The notes beneath the pieces were generated by a model. The model had not been told where the DNA came from and ran no database searches. It was given only the letters and a program-made list of their open reading frames with translations. Source: a virus (taxonomy: Duplodnaviria; Heunggongvirae; Uroviricota; Caudoviricetes). Taken from it: DNA of 10,558 nucleotides. Of the stretch, positions 301 through 10,558 are shown piece after piece (the stretch's first letter is position 1; each line of letters opens with the position of its first letter). Made by a program: the position numbers and the translations under genes. The stretch lies in IMG/VR virus record IMGVR_UViG_2690316166_000024. The stretch is one strand, 5' to 3'.

Positions 301-1493
301 TCACTCATCATCTTCTGTTTCGTACTCCACATCAGAAAGCCTTACCTCAAGCTCCAAGGACGTCGTGAAGCCGCTATTATTGAGACAATGTGTCACCTTA
401 GTGATGGTCCAGTCCTGCTCGTCTATGACGCGCTTAAAGCCTGACACTTTAACCGGTGTTTCCGTGTAAATATCTGCACGACCGGTAGCCAGGCTGATGG
501 AGAACTCCGCTACACCCCGTTGCAGTTTATCCCACTTCGCCTGAGCGGCGCGCATGGCCTGCGCTTTTGTGGCATATACCGTGGTCAGGGCAAAAACGTT
601 GTCAGCTTCACCGGCCATGTATTCACCTTCGCGCGCTTCCGGTACTTTTGGCGCTTTCTTCTGCGTGACCGGTTTCGCTTTCGGGTGCTCCAGTGCGCGC
701 AGGTGTTTTTCTTTCTTTTTGCGTTTCAGTTTTACCTTCTGCTTTTGCGGCTTCGGGTCTTTGGTGTGTAACCACTTTGCCGTTACGCCGGTGTAAGCTC
801 CACGGTCAGCAATCGCAAAATGATGACGGTCGCCGTCGCTGCGGGTGATGGTAATCTGCGGGATTTTTTTACCGCTGGCCGTCACCCCCTGCCCCGCTTT
901 GAGAAACAGCAGTTTTCCCATTTTTACCGACACNNNNNNNNNNNNNNNNNNNNNACCGACACCTCGCCGCCGTTGCGTTCAGCAAGACGGGTCAGGAATT
1001 TCGCATCAGACTCCTGCGACTGGTCGATGTGTGGAATTTTTATTCCGGCCAGTGACGGAGCGACACTGGCTTCCAGCCTGTTACGGGAGGCTATCGCCTC
1101 AACAATCGCACCGAGCGTAATGTCATGCCATGAGCCTTCACGGCGGGAATTGAGCGTCCCGCGAAAATCTGCACTCCGGGCGCGGATGGTGACCACATCC
1201 GGCGCGCCCCGGTGTTCAACCTCATCAACGGTAAATTTCCCTTTGCATACCAGGGCAAAACCTTTCCAGCCGATATACACCGTCAGGACAGCGCCACGAA
1301 CCGGCAGCCCGACCTGCCCGTCGGCATCGTTCAGTTCAATATCAAGCTGGTCAGCCTCAAAGCCCCGGTTATCCGTCAGGGTCATGCTCATCAGACGGTC
1401 GCTGATATTGCCGGTAATATCCCTGCTGTCGAGCATCAGCATGTAATCCGGCGTCAGCGTACTGCCTGCATCAAATGTCAGCGCATCCAGCAT
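301..1493 (-). CDS. D: Tail protein gpD, interrupted by a 21-nt N-run that is probably an assembly artefact
   Basis: Track ORFs 924-1493 (MLDALTFDAGSTLTPDYML...GGEVS) and 301-933 (VSVKMGKLLFLKAGQ...) are the N- and C-terminal parts of P2-type gpD. They sit in different frames only because of the N-run plus a duplicated 8-mer. Removing 29 nt (21 N plus one ACCGACAC copy) restores one 387-aa ORF. ATG at 1491-1493 overlaps the gpU stop. Confidence 0.88.
934..954. other. Assembly gap or masked bases (21 N) flanked by 8-bp direct repeat ACCGACAC (926-933 and 955-962)
   Basis: Run of n characters seen directly in the sequence, with an identical 8-mer immediately on each side. Confidence 0.95.
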
Positions 1494-5441: not shown

Positions 5442-6632
5442 TTAATTGCTGTTAACCGAGGTGACCAGATTTGCCAGGTATTTATCGGTAATACGCTGGC
5501 GCAGGGTCAGGTTTTCAAGAGGAGGCACCGGGGTATAGTCGTAGTCGATATACAGTTTTCCGGCCTTGAGGGTTTCCGCATCGTTGGATTCTTCGCTGAA
5601 CCAGCAGGTCGCATCCACGATATAGCCGTTTGTTTTCAGCTCACGGAATTTGGCATTGATGCCGTCAACGATGTCGCGAATCAGCGTTGCGGTGATGGGC
5701 TTGTCCACCGCCCACATGTGCGCCTCAGCCATCGTGTCGGCCAGCACCTGCGCGGTGCGGGTGTAGTTTTCAAAGAGGAACAGCGGGTCATCAGAGCAGG
5801 TACGGTTACCCCAGAAGCGGAAACCGTCACGGCGAATCAGCGTTGTGACGCCTGACTCGTTAAGCAGGTCAGCATCGGTGCCGGACTCCTGCAAATCCCA
5901 GAATACGGACGCGCTGATGCCGGTAACACCGTTCACCCCGACGTTGGACAGCGTTTTATGCCAGCCCTGCTCCTGGTCGATTTTAGCGCGCAGACCCAGC
6001 GCACGGGCGGTGGCATACGCGGTGGCGGTGGTACTGGCGACCGTATCCCATGCGAGGAAATCCGGCCAGATGACCATCAGCTCACGCTGGCTGAAATTCT
6101 GACGGTAGGCTTTCACCTCGGAAACGGTCTTACAGCCCCATGCGCTGATATACCCGAAAGCGCGCAGCTTCTGACAGACTGATGCCAGTGCAACAGCCAC
6201 CTCTTTGGTGTCCAGTCCCGGCACGCCGAGAATACGCGGTTTAACACCGGTTACCGACTCCGCCGCCAGCAGGGCTTTCAGTCCGGTGTACTGACCGTTT
6301 TCGTCGGTGGTGCCGATGATATTGGAAACGGTCTGCGCGAGTTTCGTTTCCTCGTCGTCGCCGGTGCCGTCTTCCACACGCACGACAACGGTGACCGGTT
6401 TTGACTGGTCGGCGATGGCCTGCAACGATGCCGCCAGCGTGCCTTTTTTACCGGCCTTTGCAATTGCGCTCTGCACATTGGTAATCAGCACCGGTTTATT
6501 GAGGGGGAAGGTTTCCGCATCCGCATCGCTGGCCGTGCAGACCATGCCGACAATGGCAGTGGATACGGTGGAAATGACGCGGGTGCCGTCGTTAATCTCC
6601 AGCACCTGCACGCCGTGATGATAGTCACTCAT
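5442..6632 (-). CDS. FI: Contractile tail sheath protein gpFI
   Basis: 396-aa ORF MSDYHHGVQVLEINDGTRV..., recognised as P2-type FI sheath. SD GGAG (complement of 6641-6644) precedes the ATG at 6630-6632. Confidence 0.93.
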   Translation of the reverse strand: MSDYHHGVQVLEINDGTRVISTVSTAIVGMVCTASDADAETFPLNKPVLITNVQSAIAKAGKKGTLAASLQAIADQSKPVTVVVRVEDGTGDDEETKLAQTVSNIIGTTDENGQYTGLKALLAAESVTGVKPRILGVPGLDTKEVAVALASVCQKLRAFGYISAWGCKTVSEVKAYRQNFSQRELMVIWPDFLAWDTVASTTATAYATARALGLRAKIDQEQGWHKTLSNVGVNGVTGISASVFWDLQESGTDADLLNESGVTTLIRRDGFRFWGNRTCSDDPLFLFENYTRTAQVLADTMAEAHMWAVDKPITATLIRDIVDGINAKFRELKTNGYIVDATCWFSEESNDAETLKAGKLYIDYDYTPVPPLENLTLRQRITDKYLANLVTSVNSN

Positions 6633-6735
6633 CCGTTTAACTCCGTGGTTAATGGGTGCAACTATTTTCTGTTGGGCAGTGCATGAGACGCTATTTGACC
6701 TGGCTGGTCAGTGGATGAAACAACAGATAAAGAAA

Positions 6736-6756
6736 ATGCGGGCAATTCGCCCGCAT
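6736..6756 (-). terminator. Putative intrinsic terminator for minus-strand transcription (GC-rich hairpin plus U-tract)
   Basis: 8-bp stem ATGCGGGC (6736-6743) pairs with GCCCGCAT (6749-6756) around a 5-nt loop. On the minus strand it is followed by TTTCTTTATCTGTTGTTTC (complement of 6717-6735). Would stop G/H-operon read-through (antisense to the cargo gene) just before the FI promoter region. Confidence 0.45.
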
Positions 6757-6773
6757 GTCCTGATTTGTACACA
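6756..6773 (-). promoter_or_regulatory. TGT-N12-ACA dyad, candidate Ogr-dependent late promoter element for the FI-FII-E-T-U-D operon
   Basis: Exact TGT(6756-6758)-N12-ACA(6771-6773) match, about 130 bp upstream of the FI start codon. P2 late promoters are described as carrying such a dyad centred near -55. Precise transcription start and -10 not identified. Confidence 0.35.
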
Positions 6774-6971
6774 CTCATTTTCCGACTGACAGTTTACATA
6801 GCCCAAACGCTATCAAATCTGACAGCCTGCTATGAGCGAAAAGCGTTAAATCTCACGATATCTGCTACCGGGAAAAATTTCGATTATCTTCGATGGGAAC
6901 TTTGATAATGTAGTAAATGCCATTTTCAGCGATCACTTTTCAAGCGTGTGTAAATGATTAATGTTAAAAAA

Positions 6972-7001
6972 TTGACTTCACTGAAATAAGGTTGCTAGTA
7001 T
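6972..7001 (+). promoter_or_regulatory. Putative sigma70-type promoter for the cargo gene
   Basis: TTGACT (6972-6977), 18-bp spacer, then TG-n-TAGTAT (6993-7001), in AT-rich DNA about 40 bp upstream of the cargo ATG. SD AAGGA at 7032-7036 lies 6 nt before the ATG at 7043. Hand-scanned, so low confidence. Confidence 0.3.
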
Positions 7002-7042
7002 TTTTGGAGCAACCATTAATGTTTTTTATTTAAGGAATGTAA

Positions 7043-8461
7043 ATGACATACGCACTGATTGATAATTCAACTCTAACTGCAGTCCAAAGAATCGAGGGGA
7101 AAGTAAAAACAAGATCGAAGGACTCAGTAGATACAGACATAATAGCATTTGAGAACTATATACAGTCTATTTTGTTCTATGATCACGTTATCGCGGTTGA
7201 TGATTATATTCCAGAGTACCGTGGGAGTAGGATTTCAAGTTTCAGAGAGATATTATTTCTTGATAAAGCACAATATGGGTTGGATGAAATTGAAAGTGAA
7301 GCAAAAAAAATATCTGATGCATTGAAACCTAAAATTCGTGGTGGAACATTTGTTAATGACGATTTTAAAAAACTAATTGAACTTCTTCAGACACATATCA
7401 TATGTACATGGGACATTAGTTCAAGTGTTTATCATCTAACACTGAAGAACTTATCTGATGGAGGTAAGGAGTTTGAAAAATATGGTAACATTGCTGCTGC
7501 CATTTTTTCAGAACTGCGTGATGCTGCTGAGTCTGGTAATAGAACAAATGGCGATGTTGAACTTCTCGATCGATTTGGCAACCCTATTCGCAAGGGGTAC
7601 AAAGTTCCCGGAGCAAAATGGGGGGATGGCACATCTGCTGGTGAAGCATCAGATGCAATCAAAGCATTCGTGGCTTCGCTTGTATGGCTGGCTAATCGGG
7701 CAGTATTTTATTCTCTCACAGCTAAGTACCTTCAAGCAGATACTTTTTTATATCCATTACGTCAGGCGTATCAACAGACATATTTAAGCCAAAACTGTCA
7801 GTATGGTTTTGACTATGCTAAACATATTGTAGAAAACTTTTCCACTTCGTTAAGTCATGATCTCATTGATATTCATTCTGGTGGTAAAGCTGTAGCAACA
7901 GCAACTTCGCTTCCTTTATTTTCGGCATGGCTCGCAAAAGAAACTGGTGATCCAAGTTGTATTGTTGAAGCTGCTTATAACATAAGGGACAACAACGAAT
8001 TTGTAAGGGCCCGTGAGAAAATGCGAGAAATAAAGCGCTTGTTTGATGAAAATGAATTGCCTCAAGCTAATAAGTCAGTAAGAGCATTGCTTACTGAAGT
8101 ATCGAAAGAATCAGATTATATTCGAACTAAGTATGGGCTCAAGACTAGACAAGGTGTACCTGTAACTAAGCTTGTACATGTATACAATACTGTTGCGGCT
8201 ATTAATTCCCTTCCGAAACTACCGACCTTTAATTTTAAAGTTAAAGTTCCTGATTTCTTATATGATCTTAAAAAACCCAAGGGGTTTCGTGCTCTCTATC
8301 GAAATTTGACTAATGATCTTTCTACTGTGTGGTCGTTAGGAGAAGCTCGAGATATTCTTGGAAGTAAAGTTGTGATAGATAATCATGCAAGAATTTACAG
8401 TCCGAAGCATGAAGAACCGCGTTTCAAAAACTCTCATTCCCCATATAAGAGCCCGATGTAG
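7043..8461 (+). CDS. Hypothetical 472-aa protein; cargo (moron) gene at the Z/fun-position hotspot between G and FI; candidate anti-phage defence or superinfection-exclusion protein
   Basis: Long uninterrupted ORF on the strand opposite to all phage late genes, with a good SD and ATG and a strongly AT-rich composition against GC-rich neighbours. No transmembrane segment, Walker A motif or other signature I can recognise by eye. The only hint is an R-x5-H (HEPN-like) motif at residues 450-456 near the C-terminus. Homology to P2 fun(Z) cannot be judged without a search. Confidence 0.85.
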   Translation: MTYALIDNSTLTAVQRIEGKVKTRSKDSVDTDIIAFENYIQSILFYDHVIAVDDYIPEYRGSRISSFREILFLDKAQYGLDEIESEAKKISDALKPKIRGGTFVNDDFKKLIELLQTHIICTWDISSSVYHLTLKNLSDGGKEFEKYGNIAAAIFSELRDAAESGNRTNGDVELLDRFGNPIRKGYKVPGAKWGDGTSAGEASDAIKAFVASLVWLANRAVFYSLTAKYLQADTFLYPLRQAYQQTYLSQNCQYGFDYAKHIVENFSTSLSHDLIDIHSGGKAVATATSLPLFSAWLAKETGDPSCIVEAAYNIRDNNEFVRAREKMREIKRLFDENELPQANKSVRALLTEVSKESDYIRTKYGLKTRQGVPVTKLVHVYNTVAAINSLPKLPTFNFKVKVPDFLYDLKKPKGFRALYRNLTNDLSTVWSLGEARDILGSKVVIDNHARIYSPKHEEPRFKNSHSPYKSPM

Positions 8462-8499
8462 CTTAAGAAAAAGACACGCCCACCTTGTGCGTCTACTTC

Positions 8500-8541
8500 T
8501 GGCACAGAGCGGACTCTCAGATTAGGCTTTACTCTGTGCCA
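8500..8541. repeat. 10-bp perfect inverted repeat TGGCACAGAG / CTCTGTGCCA separated by 22 nt, between convergent cargo gene and gene G
   Basis: Seen directly: 8500-8509 is the reverse complement of 8532-8541. Lies 39 nt after the cargo stop and 35 nt after the G stop on the other strand. No U-tract follows, so it is not a canonical intrinsic terminator. Confidence 0.5.
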
Positions 8542-8575
8542 TAGATATGTAAGCTCACACCAGAGCTCATACAAC

Positions 8576-9103
8576 TTATTGCGGCATTTCCGGCCATTCA
8601 GGATTTGCAGGATCCACACGACTGACCAGAACACTGTAGCGTTCCCATGCCTCCAGTCGACTGCGCTCCTCATCTGTTGCCATATTCAGCCTGACAGCGC
8701 GCTCCAGCGGCAAAATCACGGATTCAGCATCTGCAAGAAGTCTGGCTTTCCGATTTTCTGCCTGCTGCTGCAATTCCTCTGCCGTATAAATTCGTTTAAT
8801 CACTGTACAGTCCTTAAACATCCAGTTCCCTGAAATGTCCGCCCGTCGGTTAGCAGTAATATCCGGCACTTCAACAACACTTAATCCATCCGGTCTGATA
8901 GCTGTCACATCCTTTTCCACATAGCGGATAATATTATCTTTGTCGTACGCTATTTTTATCGTGTCATCAGCAAAATACTTTTGTTCTTCGTACCAGTTCT
9001 TACCATCTTCTGAAAAAAACCAGACAACATCAAAGTCCTTTGTCAATTGATATTGTTCAACCGTTTTTGGATTACCTGCCGTTATATTTATCAAATGCTG
9101 CAT
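8576..9103 (-). CDS. G: Tail fibre assembly protein gpG
   Basis: 175-aa [43 protein letters not shown]..., recognised as P2-type G. Starts 3 nt after the H stop. Confidence 0.92.
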
Positions 9104-9106
9104 AAA

Positions 9107-10558
9107 TTATACCTGTGCCACGTTATACCAAGTCCCGTTAATGTATTTCTGCACCGGTCTGTAATATACGCCACCAATGTTATCGGCAGAGTTTGAGCCG
9201 GTATCCTGAACAATAATGCCGGAATATACACACCCGGACGGTGCCTGATGTGTCCATGTCATACCATTGTTCGCAGGTTTGTATGTGGCAGCACCACCAA
9301 GCCGGATATCCCGGACATAGCGTGAATCAAAGTTGCCATAGTTAGATGGTGATACCTGCCCGTTAACAGCAAAAGTGATGCTGTTATCTGTATTTCTCTG
9401 ACTGTAAAAATGCCAGCCTGCATCATCACCTAATTCAGCCACCACAGGACGACTTGAGTTTCCCCACAAATTGAATGCGGCTTCCTTCGTGGATGTATTG
9501 CTGCTGCTGACCGTGAACTTTTTCCCGCTACCGGCACGTACTTTGGTACTTGAGACAATATCACCTGTAACACTCAGGCCATGCCCCATTGACACTCCGC
9601 CATTGGCGTTATTGATAGTCAGCGGTCTTAAGCCGTTCCATGTCCCAAATTTATCGCCAGAGGCCGTCAGCATTAAATATGTGCTGCCGCCATCATTCCT
9701 GATAAAGAATCCATAATTGCCATAAGCAATGCGCAGACCATTAGCACTGAGTGATGTAATTTCACCTCTTGAACGGAGACCATAAGCGGAGCTGAGTGAT
9801 AATTCTTCCTGAGCGTCATTGTTTCCTGTCGCCCAGCGAATTACCCCGCCCTGAACTGTTTCATGCCAGATAGTATCTCCTTCTCCACCACGAAACTTTC
9901 TGAGATATTTTTTGCCGCCTCTGGTGCCTGAACATAAGGCCGTAGACATATAGGCATTCTGGCTTCCGCCATCCTGATTAATCGTTCCGGTCATTGAGTC
10001 GCCCTGACGATTCCAGTCACGACGCCAGCCGGGGGAGTAGCCGTCCCCATGATTTATGTAAGTGAATTGCGCGCTGGTTGTACCGCCACCGCTTGATGTT
10101 GTTGGCGTGGTCACTCGGATAGTGATTGCAGATTTAGTTCCCATGACCTCGACGACACAACCAGCCAGGTGGATATCACCACATCCGGTATCCGTAATGA
10201 TTTTGTTATTTGCATATGACCAGGAGCCTTTGCACATCCAGTACGGATGATTAAATGCACCACGGGAATCCAGCCATTCAATAAACTGAGCGGTTGTCCA
10301 GTTTCCGGCTTCAGTGCTCAAAGCGCCGCTATAAGCACGACAGGCACCGATATTTTTCGTGAAGGTATCCTTTCCCGGAATATCCGCACCGTTCTGATCT
10401 TTCTGAAGACGTTTTTCAGCATTGTCATAGGCAGACTTCACTGCTTTTGGCGTTGCGGCCAGCGTTTCAGAATCGCTGTTGATGGCACTACTTAGCTGGA
10501 CAAGACCTTTTCGCGCTGTGGTGGCATCCTGTGCAGTGTATTTCCCGTTAGCAAGGTC
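9107..10558 (-). CDS. H: Tail fibre protein gpH (partial; N-terminus lies beyond the window)
   Basis: The minus-strand frame is open to the window edge: complement of 10501-10558 reads DLANGKYTAQDATTARKGL..., continuing into ...LVQLSSAINSDSETLAATPKAVKSAYDNAEK..., a tail-fibre repeat region recognised from P2 H. The track's Met at 10441 is internal. Stop is complement of 9107-9109. Confidence 0.88.
   Translation of the reverse strand, partial: DLANGKYTAQDATTARKGLVQLSSAINSDSETLAATPKAVKSAYDNAEKRLQKDQNGADIPGKDTFTKNIGACRAYSGALSTEAGNWTTAQFIEWLDSRGAFNHPYWMCKGSWSYANNKIITDTGCGDIHLAGCVVEVMGTKSAITIRVTTPTTSSGGGTTSAQFTYINHGDGYSPGWRRDWNRQGDSMTGTINQDGGSQNAYMSTALCSGTRGGKKYLRKFRGGEGDTIWHETVQGGVIRWATGNNDAQEELSLSSAYGLRSRGEITSLSANGLRIAYGNYGFFIRNDGGSTYLMLTASGDKFGTWNGLRPLTINNANGGVSMGHGLSVTGDIVSSTKVRAGSGKKFTVSSSNTSTKEAAFNLWGNSSRPVVAELGDDAGWHFYSQRNTDNSITFAVNGQVSPSNYGNFDSRYVRDIRLGGAATYKPANNGMTWTHQAPSGCVYSGIIVQDTGSNSADNIGGVYYRPVQKYINGTWYNVAQV

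What the first reader, a model, noticed from the sequence alone, without database searches (positions are those of the whole stretch)
6633..8575. AT-rich insertion island with its own transcriptional signals, set antisense to phage late transcription
The roughly 1.9-kb G-FI interval is much more AT-rich than the flanking tail genes by eye (exact GC should be computed). Its gene is convergent with G and divergent from FI. A hairpin plus U-tract at 6736-6756 (minus strand) and an inverted repeat at 8500-8541 bracket the island, which would insulate the cargo gene and the FI promoter from G/H-operon read-through.
Basis: partly seen in the sequence, partly recalled or inferred. Interest (0 to 1): 0.55.

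Follow-up and report, generated by a model that had tools for sequence, protein, structure and literature searches.

The report
P2 prophage accessory-gene hotspot, unknown cargo
The AT-rich stretch between two tail genes is the well-known "Z/fun" accessory-gene hotspot of P2-like prophages, here holding one uncharacterised 472-residue gene that travels alone on many mobile elements and is a reasonable but untested candidate for a phage-defence gene.

Summary
The G-FI interval (6633-8575) has 38.7% GC, against 55.6% to its left and 47.5% to its right. It carries one plus-strand ORF (7043-8461, 472 aa), convergent with G and divergent from FI. The hairpin with U-tract (6736-6756, minus strand) and the inverted repeat (8500-8541) are both present.

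The truly variable cargo is narrower, about 6846-8493. The left hairpin sits directly upstream of the Ogr-dependent late promoter P_F.

This is the classical Z/fun hotspot of P2-like phages. Phage P2 itself carries fun(Z) there in the same antisense layout. 1017 of 5426 complete E. coli genomes match the conserved flanks; only 7 carry this cargo.

Verdict: a known kind of island with an uncharacterised cargo that is probably a single-gene defence candidate.

The parts
5442..6632 (-). FI, tail sheath gene (conserved backbone, left flank)
   Evidence: phrog_23 tail sheath, E 1.5e-158. Annotated as phage tail sheath protein in the closely related prophage of E. coli 89-3156.
6656..6725 (-). Late promoter P_F of the FI-D operon: activator (Ogr) binding site 6700-6725, transcription start 6656-6658. 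Assigned by homology only.
   Evidence: Mapped from the misc_features of the phage P2 reference genome NC_001895 through alignment A3.
6726..6756 (-). Conserved intrinsic-terminator-like hairpin (6736-6756) plus U-tract (6726-6735), directly upstream of P_F. Backbone, not cargo.
   Evidence: Only terminator hit in the scan. Folds at -17.9 kcal/mol, z -3.4. Conserved in 6 phages, 95.8% of cells paired, one compensatory change.
6816..6827 (-). Left copy of the junction motif GRCTGTCAGATT, an inverted partner of 8512-8523. A related copy lies at 6784-6795.
   Evidence: Inverted repeat I1. Five matches with up to 2 mismatches, against 0.66 expected. Invariant in other P2-like phages.
6846..8493 (+). 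Variable cargo module, the real island: about 1.65 kb, 37.3% GC.
   Evidence: Backbone homology to P2-like phages with other cargo stops at 6844-6845 and resumes at 8490-8496. GC.
6972..7001 (+). Sigma-70 promoter-like site TTGACT-18-TAGTAT with a TG extension. Prediction only.
   Evidence: where the number of such sites in the region is not above chance. Only partly conserved in the Pantoea and Serratia copies.
7032..7037 (+). Shine-Dalgarno sequence AAGGAA, 6 nt before the ATG.
   Evidence: Read from the sequence. GG invariant, and AGG kept in two, of the three aligned copies.
7043..8461 (+). Cargo gene: 472-aa protein (53 kDa, pI 8.6, no transmembrane segment) of an uncharacterised family. 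Has a PIN-like N-terminal alpha/beta domain (about residues 1-137), a helical C-terminal part and an invariant C-terminal KSPM.
8465..8494 (.). Hairpin at the cargo's right-hand junction (8472-8494) just after the stop codon, its last bases overlapping the conserved flank. On the minus strand it is followed by UUUUUCUU (8472-8465). Candidate two-way terminator.
   Evidence: Folds; sequence. Not found by the strict scan.
8500..8541 (.). Conserved backbone inverted repeat TGGCACAGAG-N22-CTCTGTGCCA downstream of G. Contains the right copy of the junction motif (8512-8523).
   Evidence: I24. Part of an element of about 80 nt conserved in Proteus, Yersinia, Brenneria, Citrobacter and Pseudomonas lundensis. 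No covariation.
8576..9103 (-). G, tail fibre assembly gene (right flank).
   Evidence: phrog_136, E 8e-78; annotation.
6109..9115 (.). 3-kb tract identical to the prophage of E. coli 89-3156, while the rest of the two prophages differs by about 2%.
   Evidence: 205 mismatches in 9604 aligned bases, none between 6109 and 9115.

Best explanation
The interval is the Z/fun-type accessory-gene ("moron") hotspot of a P2-like prophage, between the tail fibre assembly gene G and the tail sheath gene FI. The phage backbone supplies fixed borders. On the FI side there is an intrinsic terminator followed at once by the Ogr-dependent late promoter P_F. On the G side there is a conserved element of about 80 nt just after the G stop codon.

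Between these borders different phages carry unrelated, AT-rich, self-contained gene modules. These are exchanged by homologous recombination in the flanking tail genes. Here the module (about 6846-8493) is one gene with a promoter-like site, a ribosome binding site and a 3' hairpin. It reads opposite to the late operons, so it can be expressed from the otherwise silent prophage.

Its product is a soluble 53-kDa protein of an uncharacterised family that moves as a single gene between prophage hotspots, integron cassettes, ICEs and defence-rich islands. Inferred, not shown: it most likely protects the lysogen against other phages as a one-protein defence system. In this reading the N-terminal alpha/beta domain, with its conserved acidic residues (D7, D32, E37, D47, D53, D54), acts as a metal-dependent nuclease of PIN-like architecture. 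The helical C-terminal two-thirds would sense infection or hold the enzyme in check.

During lytic growth the junction hairpin (8472-8494), and possibly the conserved G-side element, would stop G-operon read-through. The left terminator would keep FI expression dependent on P_F.
For: Hotspot identity (shown):
- All flanking genes are P2 late genes.
- The P2 reference genome carries fun(Z) at the same place, also antisense and divergent from FI.
- Five P2-like phages carry five different cargos there, in both orientations.
- 1017 of 5426 E. coli genomes match the interval only through its conserved ends (mostly the left one), with variable spans wherever both ends were joined; only 7 have this cargo.
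- The literature describes the site as the second P2 defence or accessory hotspot (PMC9519451; bioRxiv 10.1101/2024.10.15.618418; PMC13586616).

Foreign origin (shown): 37% GC and GC3 of 27%.

Exchange by flanking homology (shown): a 3.0-kb tract with no mismatch to another prophage, inside a backbone that is about 2% divergent.

Self-sufficiency of the gene (shown):
- The family is about 320 clusters at 50% identity. Full-length members are about 440-485 aa (shorter hits look like fragments) and none is long enough to carry an extra fused domain.
- There is no conserved neighbour across nine genomic settings.
- In Vibrio vulnificus it is a cassette between attC-like repeats.

Association with defence genes (shown as neighbourhood only):
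- Pectobacterium: HEPN_Toprim_N/RiboL-PSP protein, toxin-antitoxin genes and a CTD1/MComp1/SMC trio.
- Pantoea: an OLD-like AAA_15/TOPRIM nuclease in an integrative element.
- Desulfotalea: MksBEF, a Wadjet-type system.
- Other cargos at the same P2 site match PADLOC candidates PDC-S51 and PDC-S07.

Fold (weak evidence):
- Conserved acidic residues follow predicted beta-strands.
Against: - No experiment or homology links the protein to defence.
- It matches no PADLOC, Pfam or NCBIfam model.
- It has no solved relative by sequence or by Foldseek.
- A profile-profile comparison with a VapC alignment gave probability 0.25%. That VapC profile was narrow, so the test was weak.
- Neighbourhood evidence is anecdotal (nine loci). 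Two contexts have no defence genes (Acinetobacter; Citrifermentans).
- The promoter is a consensus match at chance frequency.
- The hotspot also carries non-defence cargo such as tail fibre genes and invertases.
Confidence: 0.6

Rival explanations
1. The cargo is a lysogenic-conversion gene with a host-directed role other than phage defence, for example stress tolerance, metabolism or virulence. It would be carried in the hotspot simply because non-essential DNA is tolerated there.
For: The Z/fun hotspot is mixed-purpose and also carries tail fibre genes, invertases and other cargo. A HAD plus NUDIX hydrolase pair occupies the site in P2_4C9. The protein matches no defence model. Two homologue contexts contain only housekeeping genes.
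Against: The family is spread across distant phyla almost only on mobile or variable DNA, with 50-90% identity and fixed length. It often lies beside nuclease-type defence genes. Integron cassette arrays and P2 hotspots are both reported to be enriched in defence genes. No metabolic or secretion signature was found, and there is no transmembrane segment.
Confidence: 0.2
2. The protein is a selfish toxin-like or addiction module that stabilises whichever mobile element carries it, with toxin and inhibitor parts fused in one chain. Any effect on phages would be incidental.
For: PIN-like folds are typical of VapC toxins. In Pectobacterium the neighbours include TacA, CcdA and CcdB genes. The gene is always on mobile DNA. 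Truncated copies occur in Shigella.
Against: No antitoxin-like partner is conserved. The protein is 3.5 times the size of a VapC. The PIN assignment itself is unproven. Addiction and abortive-infection defence are not mutually exclusive.
Confidence: 0.1
3. The gene serves the phage itself during infection, as an anti-defence factor or a takeover or exclusion function, rather than serving the lysogen.
For: Temperate phage hotspots can carry counter-defence genes; a few Anti_RM and Anti_CRISPR genes were found in P2. The gene sits among late genes.
Against: It is antisense to the late operons, lies behind terminator-like structures and has a sigma-70-like upstream region, which is the layout of fun(Z) and other lysogen-expressed morons. 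It also occurs in integron cassettes, ICEs and chromosomal islands with no phage around it. It is absent from all 50,697 deposited phage genomes searched by tblastn.
Confidence: 0.07
4. The interval is ancestral P2 DNA that merely looks foreign, or the ORF is not a real gene.
For: None beyond the absence of any annotation.
Against: Only 7 of 1017 related E. coli prophage loci carry it. GC3 is 27%. The ORF is kept full-length at 50-90% identity, with only rare one- to three-residue indels, in bacteria from several phyla.
Confidence: 0.01

Closest known systems
Z/fun locus of bacteriophage P2 (fun(Z), blocks phage T5); "P2 defence hotspot #2" of Vassallo et al. 2022
   Same: Same position between G and FI. 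Same conserved borders: P_F with its upstream hairpin, and the element after G. Same architecture, with the cargo antisense to the late genes, divergent from FI and convergent with G. AT-rich and replaceable.
   Different: The cargo is unrelated. The search of the phage collection matched the P2 group only through the conserved flanks, not through the cargo. Fun(Z) is 528 aa (1587-nt CDS), while this protein is 472 aa and of another family. Its function has not been tested, whereas fun(Z) has a known T5-exclusion phenotype (record annotation).
Single-gene candidate defence cargos of the same hotspot and of PADLOC (PDC-S51 in phage fiAA91-ss; the PD-T4 and PD-lambda systems of Vassallo 2022)
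   Same: One-gene modules in the same slot with their own expression signals. Annotated as hypothetical proteins. Found by position rather than by homology.
   Different: No sequence similarity to any PADLOC v2 model at E up to 1.
VapC / PIN-domain ribonucleases
   Different: No sequence or profile similarity. The strand and helix count differs, with one extra beta-alpha unit in the model. There is a 330-residue C-terminal extension and no antitoxin partner. Matching of the four PIN acidic residues could not be checked in 3D.
Integron cassettes and ICE cargo genes encoding phage defence (sedentary chromosomal integrons of Vibrio)
   Same: A homologue (69% identity) is a cassette flanked by attC-like repeats in V. 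vulnificus. Another (86% identity) is cargo among the conjugation (tra) genes of a Serratia ICE.
   Different: In the window the gene is not in a cassette. It is held between phage backbone sequences and, in the one exchange seen here, moved together with its flanking tail-gene DNA, as expected for homologous recombination.

Membership tests
P2-like phage Z/fun accessory hotspot (moron locus) | Located between the tail fibre assembly gene G and the tail sheath gene FI of a P2-like genome. | tested here: met
   Gene order H-G-[island]-FI-FII-E-T-U-D-ogr. Same as the P2 reference.
P2-like phage Z/fun accessory hotspot (moron locus) | Content varies between otherwise collinear phages while the borders are conserved. 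| tested here: met
   Borders at 6845 and 8490-8496 are shared with 5 phages carrying other cargos. 1017 E. coli genomes match the conserved flanks; 7 have this cargo.
P2-like phage Z/fun accessory hotspot (moron locus) | Base composition and codon usage differ from the phage core genes. | tested here: met
   37.3% GC against 55.6%; GC3 27% against 59-70% in the FI-U genes.
P2-like phage Z/fun accessory hotspot (moron locus) | Cargo is expressed autonomously from the prophage, with its own promoter and terminator. | not testable with these tools
   Only a promoter-like site at chance frequency, a Shine-Dalgarno sequence and a 3' hairpin. No transcript data.
Anti-phage defence system (any known family) | Homology to a validated or candidate defence protein model. 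| tested here: not met
   No PADLOC v2.0.0 hit at E up to 1. No Pfam or NCBIfam hit. Defence models newer than 2023 could not be searched.
Anti-phage defence system (any known family) | Reduces phage plating or burst when expressed. | not testable with these tools
   Needs an experiment.
Anti-phage defence system (any known family) | Recurrent location in defence islands or mobile-element hotspots. | tested here: met
   P2 hotspot, integron cassette, ICE cargo, and positions next to HEPN/Toprim, OLD-like and Mks genes. The sample is only nine loci, with two neutral contexts.
PIN-domain nuclease (VapC-like) | PIN fold: a three-layer alpha/beta/alpha domain with a parallel sheet. | tested here: inconclusive
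PIN-domain nuclease (VapC-like) | Sequence or profile similarity to PIN families. | tested here: not met
   No Pfam PIN hit in any of 82 members at E up to 10. hhalign against a VapC alignment gave probability 0.25%. That VapC profile was narrow (73-98% identity), so the test was weak.
PIN-domain nuclease (VapC-like) | Four conserved acidic residues forming a metal site. | tested here: inconclusive
   D7, D32, E37, D47, D53 and D54 are at least 90% conserved down to 21% identity. Several follow predicted strands.
Type II toxin-antitoxin module | An adjacent small antitoxin gene co-transcribed with the toxin. | tested here: not met
   No conserved neighbour in nine contexts. In the window, the 197 bp upstream of the ORF holds no ORF that lies wholly inside it.
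Integron gene cassette | An attC recombination site next to the ORF. | tested here: not met
   The Vibrio homologue has attC-like repeats. By eye, the window's flanks show no GTTRRRY core site, and the inverted repeat 8500-8541 is P2 backbone.

The most novel reading that the evidence does not exclude
The 472-aa protein founds a new single-protein anti-phage defence family. It would have a divergent PIN-like nuclease head, a large helical sensor or regulator body and an invariant C-terminal KSPM tail. It would be disseminated as a one-gene unit through P2 tail-region hotspots, Vibrio integron cassettes, ICEs and integrative elements across several bacterial phyla.

A further possibility is that the conserved inverted CTGTCAGATT-containing border sequences act as recombination or protein-binding sites that help move cargo. 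These sequences accompany the gene even in a non-P2 Pantoea element.
Probability: 0.4. Interest if true: 0.5.

Novelty: new member of a known kind. Interest (0 to 1): 0.33.

Why it matters
The island itself teaches nothing new. It re-finds the Z/fun hotspot that P2 workers have known for decades and that recent defence-discovery papers have exploited.

Its value is as a pointer. The cargo is a conserved, widely transferred, completely unannotated protein family sitting in a slot where about half of the tested genes turn out to be phage-defence systems. It is a cheap, well-defined candidate to clone: 1.65 kb, one gene, with its native upstream region.

The analysis also gives a clean map of which signals belong to the phage backbone and which to the cargo. 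That map is useful for anyone engineering or annotating P2-like prophages.

Tried and rejected
Protein family and structure searches:
- Pfam, NCBIfam, PADLOC and PDB-sequence searches of the cargo protein and of 82 family members returned nothing meaningful: only scattered weak Pfam hits in a few members and four chance PDB hits at E above 0.5.
- PHROGs gives only an unknown-function family, phrog_13435.
- Foldseek against the PDB found nothing with E below 0.1. The afdb50 library was not available.
- hhalign of the family against a VapC alignment gave no signal. The VapC set returned by the search was too narrow (73-98% identity) to be a good PIN profile.

Searches of collections and literature:
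- tblastn found the protein in none of the 50,697 phage records. Only four plasmids matched (one covering the full length), at 32-38% identity.
- A literature search for accession WP_000220361 found no paper.
- Nilsson et al. 2004 and Odegrip et al. 2006, the primary descriptions of the variable P2 loci, are not held in the library. Their content is cited from memory only.
- Rfam found no RNA family in 6400-8800.

Sequence-level ideas tested:
- TGT-N12-ACA, the late-promoter consensus as quoted: the perfect match at 6756-6773 is at chance frequency. It does not coincide with the annotated P_F activator site mapped from P2 (6700-6725), so I did not use it.
- The idea that the 8500-8541 repeat is an RNA hairpin under selection is not supported (0 compensatory changes).
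- The idea that the border motif marks a cassette used outside P2: the genome-wide scan gave 11 hits, about 17 being expected by my own chance estimate. The five real ones align to the backbone element that follows G; only the Citrobacter contig also shows the left flank, and no FI, G or H homologue was detected in any. The question stays open, except for the Pantoea copy.
- An apparent frameshift in gene D turned out to be a masked run of N at 934-954.
Full report
**1. What the window is**

All long ORFs outside the interval lie on the minus strand. They are P2 late genes in the canonical order: H (cut), G, FI, FII, E/E', T, U, D, ogr. The window is 97-98% identical to a P2-like prophage inserted next to yegQ in E. 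coli 89-3156.

**2. Checking the observation**

The sliding profile drops to 0.33-0.44.
- The only long ORF is 7043-8461 on the plus strand (472 aa). Its GC3 is 27%, against 59-70% in FI, FII, T and U. It has the largest codon-usage distance to the pooled tail genes.
- It is divergent from FI and convergent with G.
- The minus-strand hairpin 6736-6756 with a U-tract is the only terminator-like site in the region and folds well (z -3.4).
- The 10-nt inverted repeat 8500-8541 is exact.

**3. Where the island really begins and ends**

Five P2-like phages with other genes at this place share the backbone up to window 6844-6845 and again from 8490-8496. The same ends recur in hundreds of E. coli genomes. 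The variable DNA is therefore about 6846-8493 (1.65 kb, 37.3% GC).

Mapping the annotated features of the P2 reference genome onto the window gives two positions:
- the P_F activator-binding site at 6700-6725;
- the FI-operon start site at 6656-6658.

The hairpin and its U-tract (6726-6756) therefore end exactly where the late promoter begins. Across six phages the stem is paired in 95.8% of cells, with one compensatory G-C to U-A change and two wobble changes. This is consistent with a real terminator, although the sample is small.

The right-hand repeat behaves differently:
- In 11 relatives it is 90% paired, but every change breaks a pair and none is compensated.
- No U-tract follows it.
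- It is part of an element of about 80 nt just after the G stop codon that is conserved as sequence. The element is found even in Proteus, Yersinia, Brenneria, Citrobacter and a Pseudomonas lundensis genome.

A hairpin at the cargo's right-hand junction (8472-8494), right after the cargo stop codon, is followed on the minus strand by UUUUUCUU. It is a better candidate for stopping read-through from G.

**4. What kind of thing it is**

Phage P2 itself carries fun(Z) at this site: antisense to the late genes, divergent from FI, and annotated as a non-essential lysogenic-conversion gene that blocks T5. The site has been described several times:
- as a second defence-enriched locus of P2-like phages (Vassallo 2022, PMC9519451);
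- as one of the well-known P2 hotspots (bioRxiv 10.1101/2024.10.15.618418);
- as a hotspot within the tail genes (Moura de Sousa 2026, PMC13586616).

In complete E. coli genomes, 1017 of 5426 match the conserved flanks. Where both flanks were joined, the spans range from about 1.06 to 1.94 kb. The annotated contents include a "lysogenic conversion protein", DUF4145 and SMEK-domain proteins. Only 7 genomes carry the present cargo. Two of the alternative cargos I fetched match PADLOC candidate models (PDC-S51, PDC-S07), and four match nothing.

The island is thus an instance of a known kind.

**5. How the cargo moves**

Against the E. coli 89-3156 prophage, the window has 205 mismatches in 9604 aligned bases but none between 6109 and 9115. 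About 64 mismatches would be expected in that tract. A 3-kb piece comprising the 5' end of FI, the whole island and G has therefore been exchanged recently between two diverged prophages. This is the signature of homologous recombination in the flanking tail genes, and it fits the rapid swapping reported for P2 and P4 hotspots (abstract).

One observation is left unexplained. The two borders carry an inverted motif, GRCTGTCAGATT (6816-6827 on the minus strand, 8512-8523 on the plus strand, with a third copy at 6784-6795). It is over-represented and invariant in other phages. The copy of the gene in a Pantoea integrative element has no P2 tail genes around it, yet it shares DNA with the window from 6812 to 8557. 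That span includes about 35 and about 62 bp of what is backbone in P2. The Serratia ICE copy shares 6832-8478. Either these copies came out of a P2-like phage with a little flanking DNA, or the border sequences are themselves involved in movement. I could not decide between these.

**6. The cargo protein**

It is 472 aa, 53 kDa, pI 8.6, with no hydrophobic segment. It is annotated as hypothetical everywhere. It matches no model in Pfam, NCBIfam or PADLOC, and has no significant match among PDB sequences.

The family:
- An exhaustive HMMER search of 1.84 billion representative proteins finds 319 hits. The full-length ones are about 440-485 aa; shorter hits look like fragments, and none is long enough to carry an extra domain.
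- Members from Pantoea, Serratia, Pectobacterium, Acinetobacter, Halomonas, Vibrio, Psychrobacter, Desulfotalea, Citrifermentans and others are 50-90% identical, with almost no indels and an invariant C-terminal KSPM.
- With members down to 21% identity, the residues conserved at 90% or more include D7, N8, R16, G19, D32, E37, D47, D53, D54, Y55, R63, G101, W123, W215, R219, Y223, P238, R240, P291 and R324.

The structure:
- An AlphaFold model from 82 sequences reaches pLDDT 78.9 and pTM 0.84.
- It shows an N-terminal alpha/beta domain (about residues 1-137) and a mostly helical remainder.
- Foldseek finds nothing.
- A profile-profile comparison with a VapC alignment is negative, but that alignment was narrow.

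I therefore call the head "PIN-like" as a description of architecture only. Membership is unproven.

**7. Genomic company of the family**

| Organism | Context |
|---|---|
| E. coli (window) | P2 prophage hotspot |
| Pectobacterium | Directly after a HEPN_Toprim_N/RiboL-PSP gene, among toxin-antitoxin genes and a CTD1/MComp1/SMC trio |
| Pantoea | Integrative element with integrases, a relaxase and an OLD-like AAA_15/TOPRIM nuclease |
| Serratia | Cargo among the tra genes of an ICE, beside IS elements and an HTH/Peptidase_M78 protein |
| Vibrio vulnificus | A cassette between attC-like repeats in a long cassette array |
| Candidatus Tenderia | Between IS elements |
| Desulfotalea | Next to MksB/E/F |
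| Acinetobacter | Lone insertion, with no defence neighbours |
| Citrifermentans | Next to a TrwC relaxase fragment, with no defence neighbours |

No partner gene recurs. A self-sufficient, horizontally mobile, single-gene function is shown. That this function is phage defence is inferred from location.

**8. Most likely mechanism**

Shown:
- It is a replaceable, compositionally foreign, one-gene module in the P2 Z/fun slot.
- It was exchanged together with its flanking tail-gene DNA, as expected for homologous recombination.
- Backbone signals border it.

Inferred:
- It is transcribed from its own promoter in the lysogen, on the strand opposite to the silent late operons.
- Its product is a cytoplasmic enzyme whose acidic N-terminal pocket cleaves nucleic acid once the C-terminal body senses a superinfecting phage. 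This would give exclusion or abortive infection, as with fun(Z), old, tin and the PD systems found in the same phages.

I put about 0.95 on the hotspot identity, about 0.55 on a defence role and about 0.3 on a nuclease mechanism.

**9. Novelty and score**

The finding as written re-describes a known hotspot, with the same layout as in phage P2. A specialist would not be surprised. The cargo family is uncharacterised and is a sensible candidate for testing, which gives the finding modest value.

- Novelty: new member of a known kind.
- Interest: 0.33.

Noticed in passing
window 6109-9115, compared with L001 (E. coli 89-3156): There are no mismatches over 3.0 kb (5' end of FI, the island and G), while the rest of the two prophages differs by about 2% (205 mismatches in 9604 nt). 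This is a recent recombination tract that carried the cargo between diverged P2-like prophages.
   Followed up: yes
window 6784-6795, 6816-6827 (minus strand) and 8512-8523 (plus strand); L009 9769-9803 and about 11452-11515: A conserved motif, GRCTGTCAGATT, lies in inverted orientation at both borders of the variable region. It is invariant in other P2-like phages. The same border sequences accompany the gene in a Pantoea integrative element that has no P2 tail genes. Its function is unknown; it could be a protein-binding or recombination site.
   Followed up: partly
window 8496-8579; L019, L022, L023, L024, L027: The non-coding element of about 80 nt just after the G stop codon is 77-81% identical in Pseudomonas lundensis, Citrobacter, Yersinia massiliensis, Proteus mirabilis and Brenneria. 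The tail fibre genes next to it are too different there to be detected by tblastn. It is conserved as sequence, without covariation in the inverted repeat.
   Followed up: partly
window 934-954: A run of 21 N (a masked stretch) lies inside gene D. It splits D into two apparent ORFs (301-933 and 924-1493). It is not a frameshift.
   Followed up: yes
window 8850-9150 and 9500-9999: There is a second GC dip (0.37) over the 5' half of G and the 3' end of H. A cluster of 48 mismatches to the E. coli 89-3156 prophage falls in 9500-9999. This is the usual mosaicism of the tail fibre (host-range) genes H and G.
   Followed up: no
cargo protein residues 452-472 (window 8396-8458): The C-terminal tail Y-x-P-K-x-E ... 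H-S-x-[FYW]-K-S-P-M is nearly invariant across the family, and the last four residues, KSPM, are invariant among the 28 closer members aligned. It is modelled with high confidence (pLDDT about 91-92). This may be a regulatory or autoinhibitory tail.
   Followed up: no
cluster members P0273, P0275-P0283 (Shigella sonnei, S. boydii, E. coli): Many copies in Shigella sonnei and S. boydii assemblies are shorter than full length (140-424 aa). Several are contig-end partials, but some sit on contigs of several megabases, so the gene may be decaying in some lineages.
   Followed up: no
L012 9839-9903 and 11893-11957 (Vibrio vulnificus): The Vibrio homologue is a gene cassette of about 2 kb between attC-like repeats of a chromosomal cassette array. 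The same protein cluster includes V. parahaemolyticus, Plesiomonas and Shewanella members.
   Followed up: partly
L006/L007 8646-9881 (Pectobacterium brasiliense): A 411-aa HEPN_Toprim_N/HEPN_RiboL-PSP protein lies 120 bp upstream of the homologue on the same strand, inside an island rich in toxin-antitoxin genes. One strain also has a CTD1/MComp1/SMC_N trio nearby.
   Followed up: no
window 6756-6773: There is a perfect TGT-N12-ACA, the textbook P2 late-promoter dyad, immediately upstream of the terminator hairpin. It is about 35-50 bp upstream of the activator site annotated for P_F in P2, and such matches occur at chance frequency in the window (2 found, 2.9 expected).
   Followed up: partly
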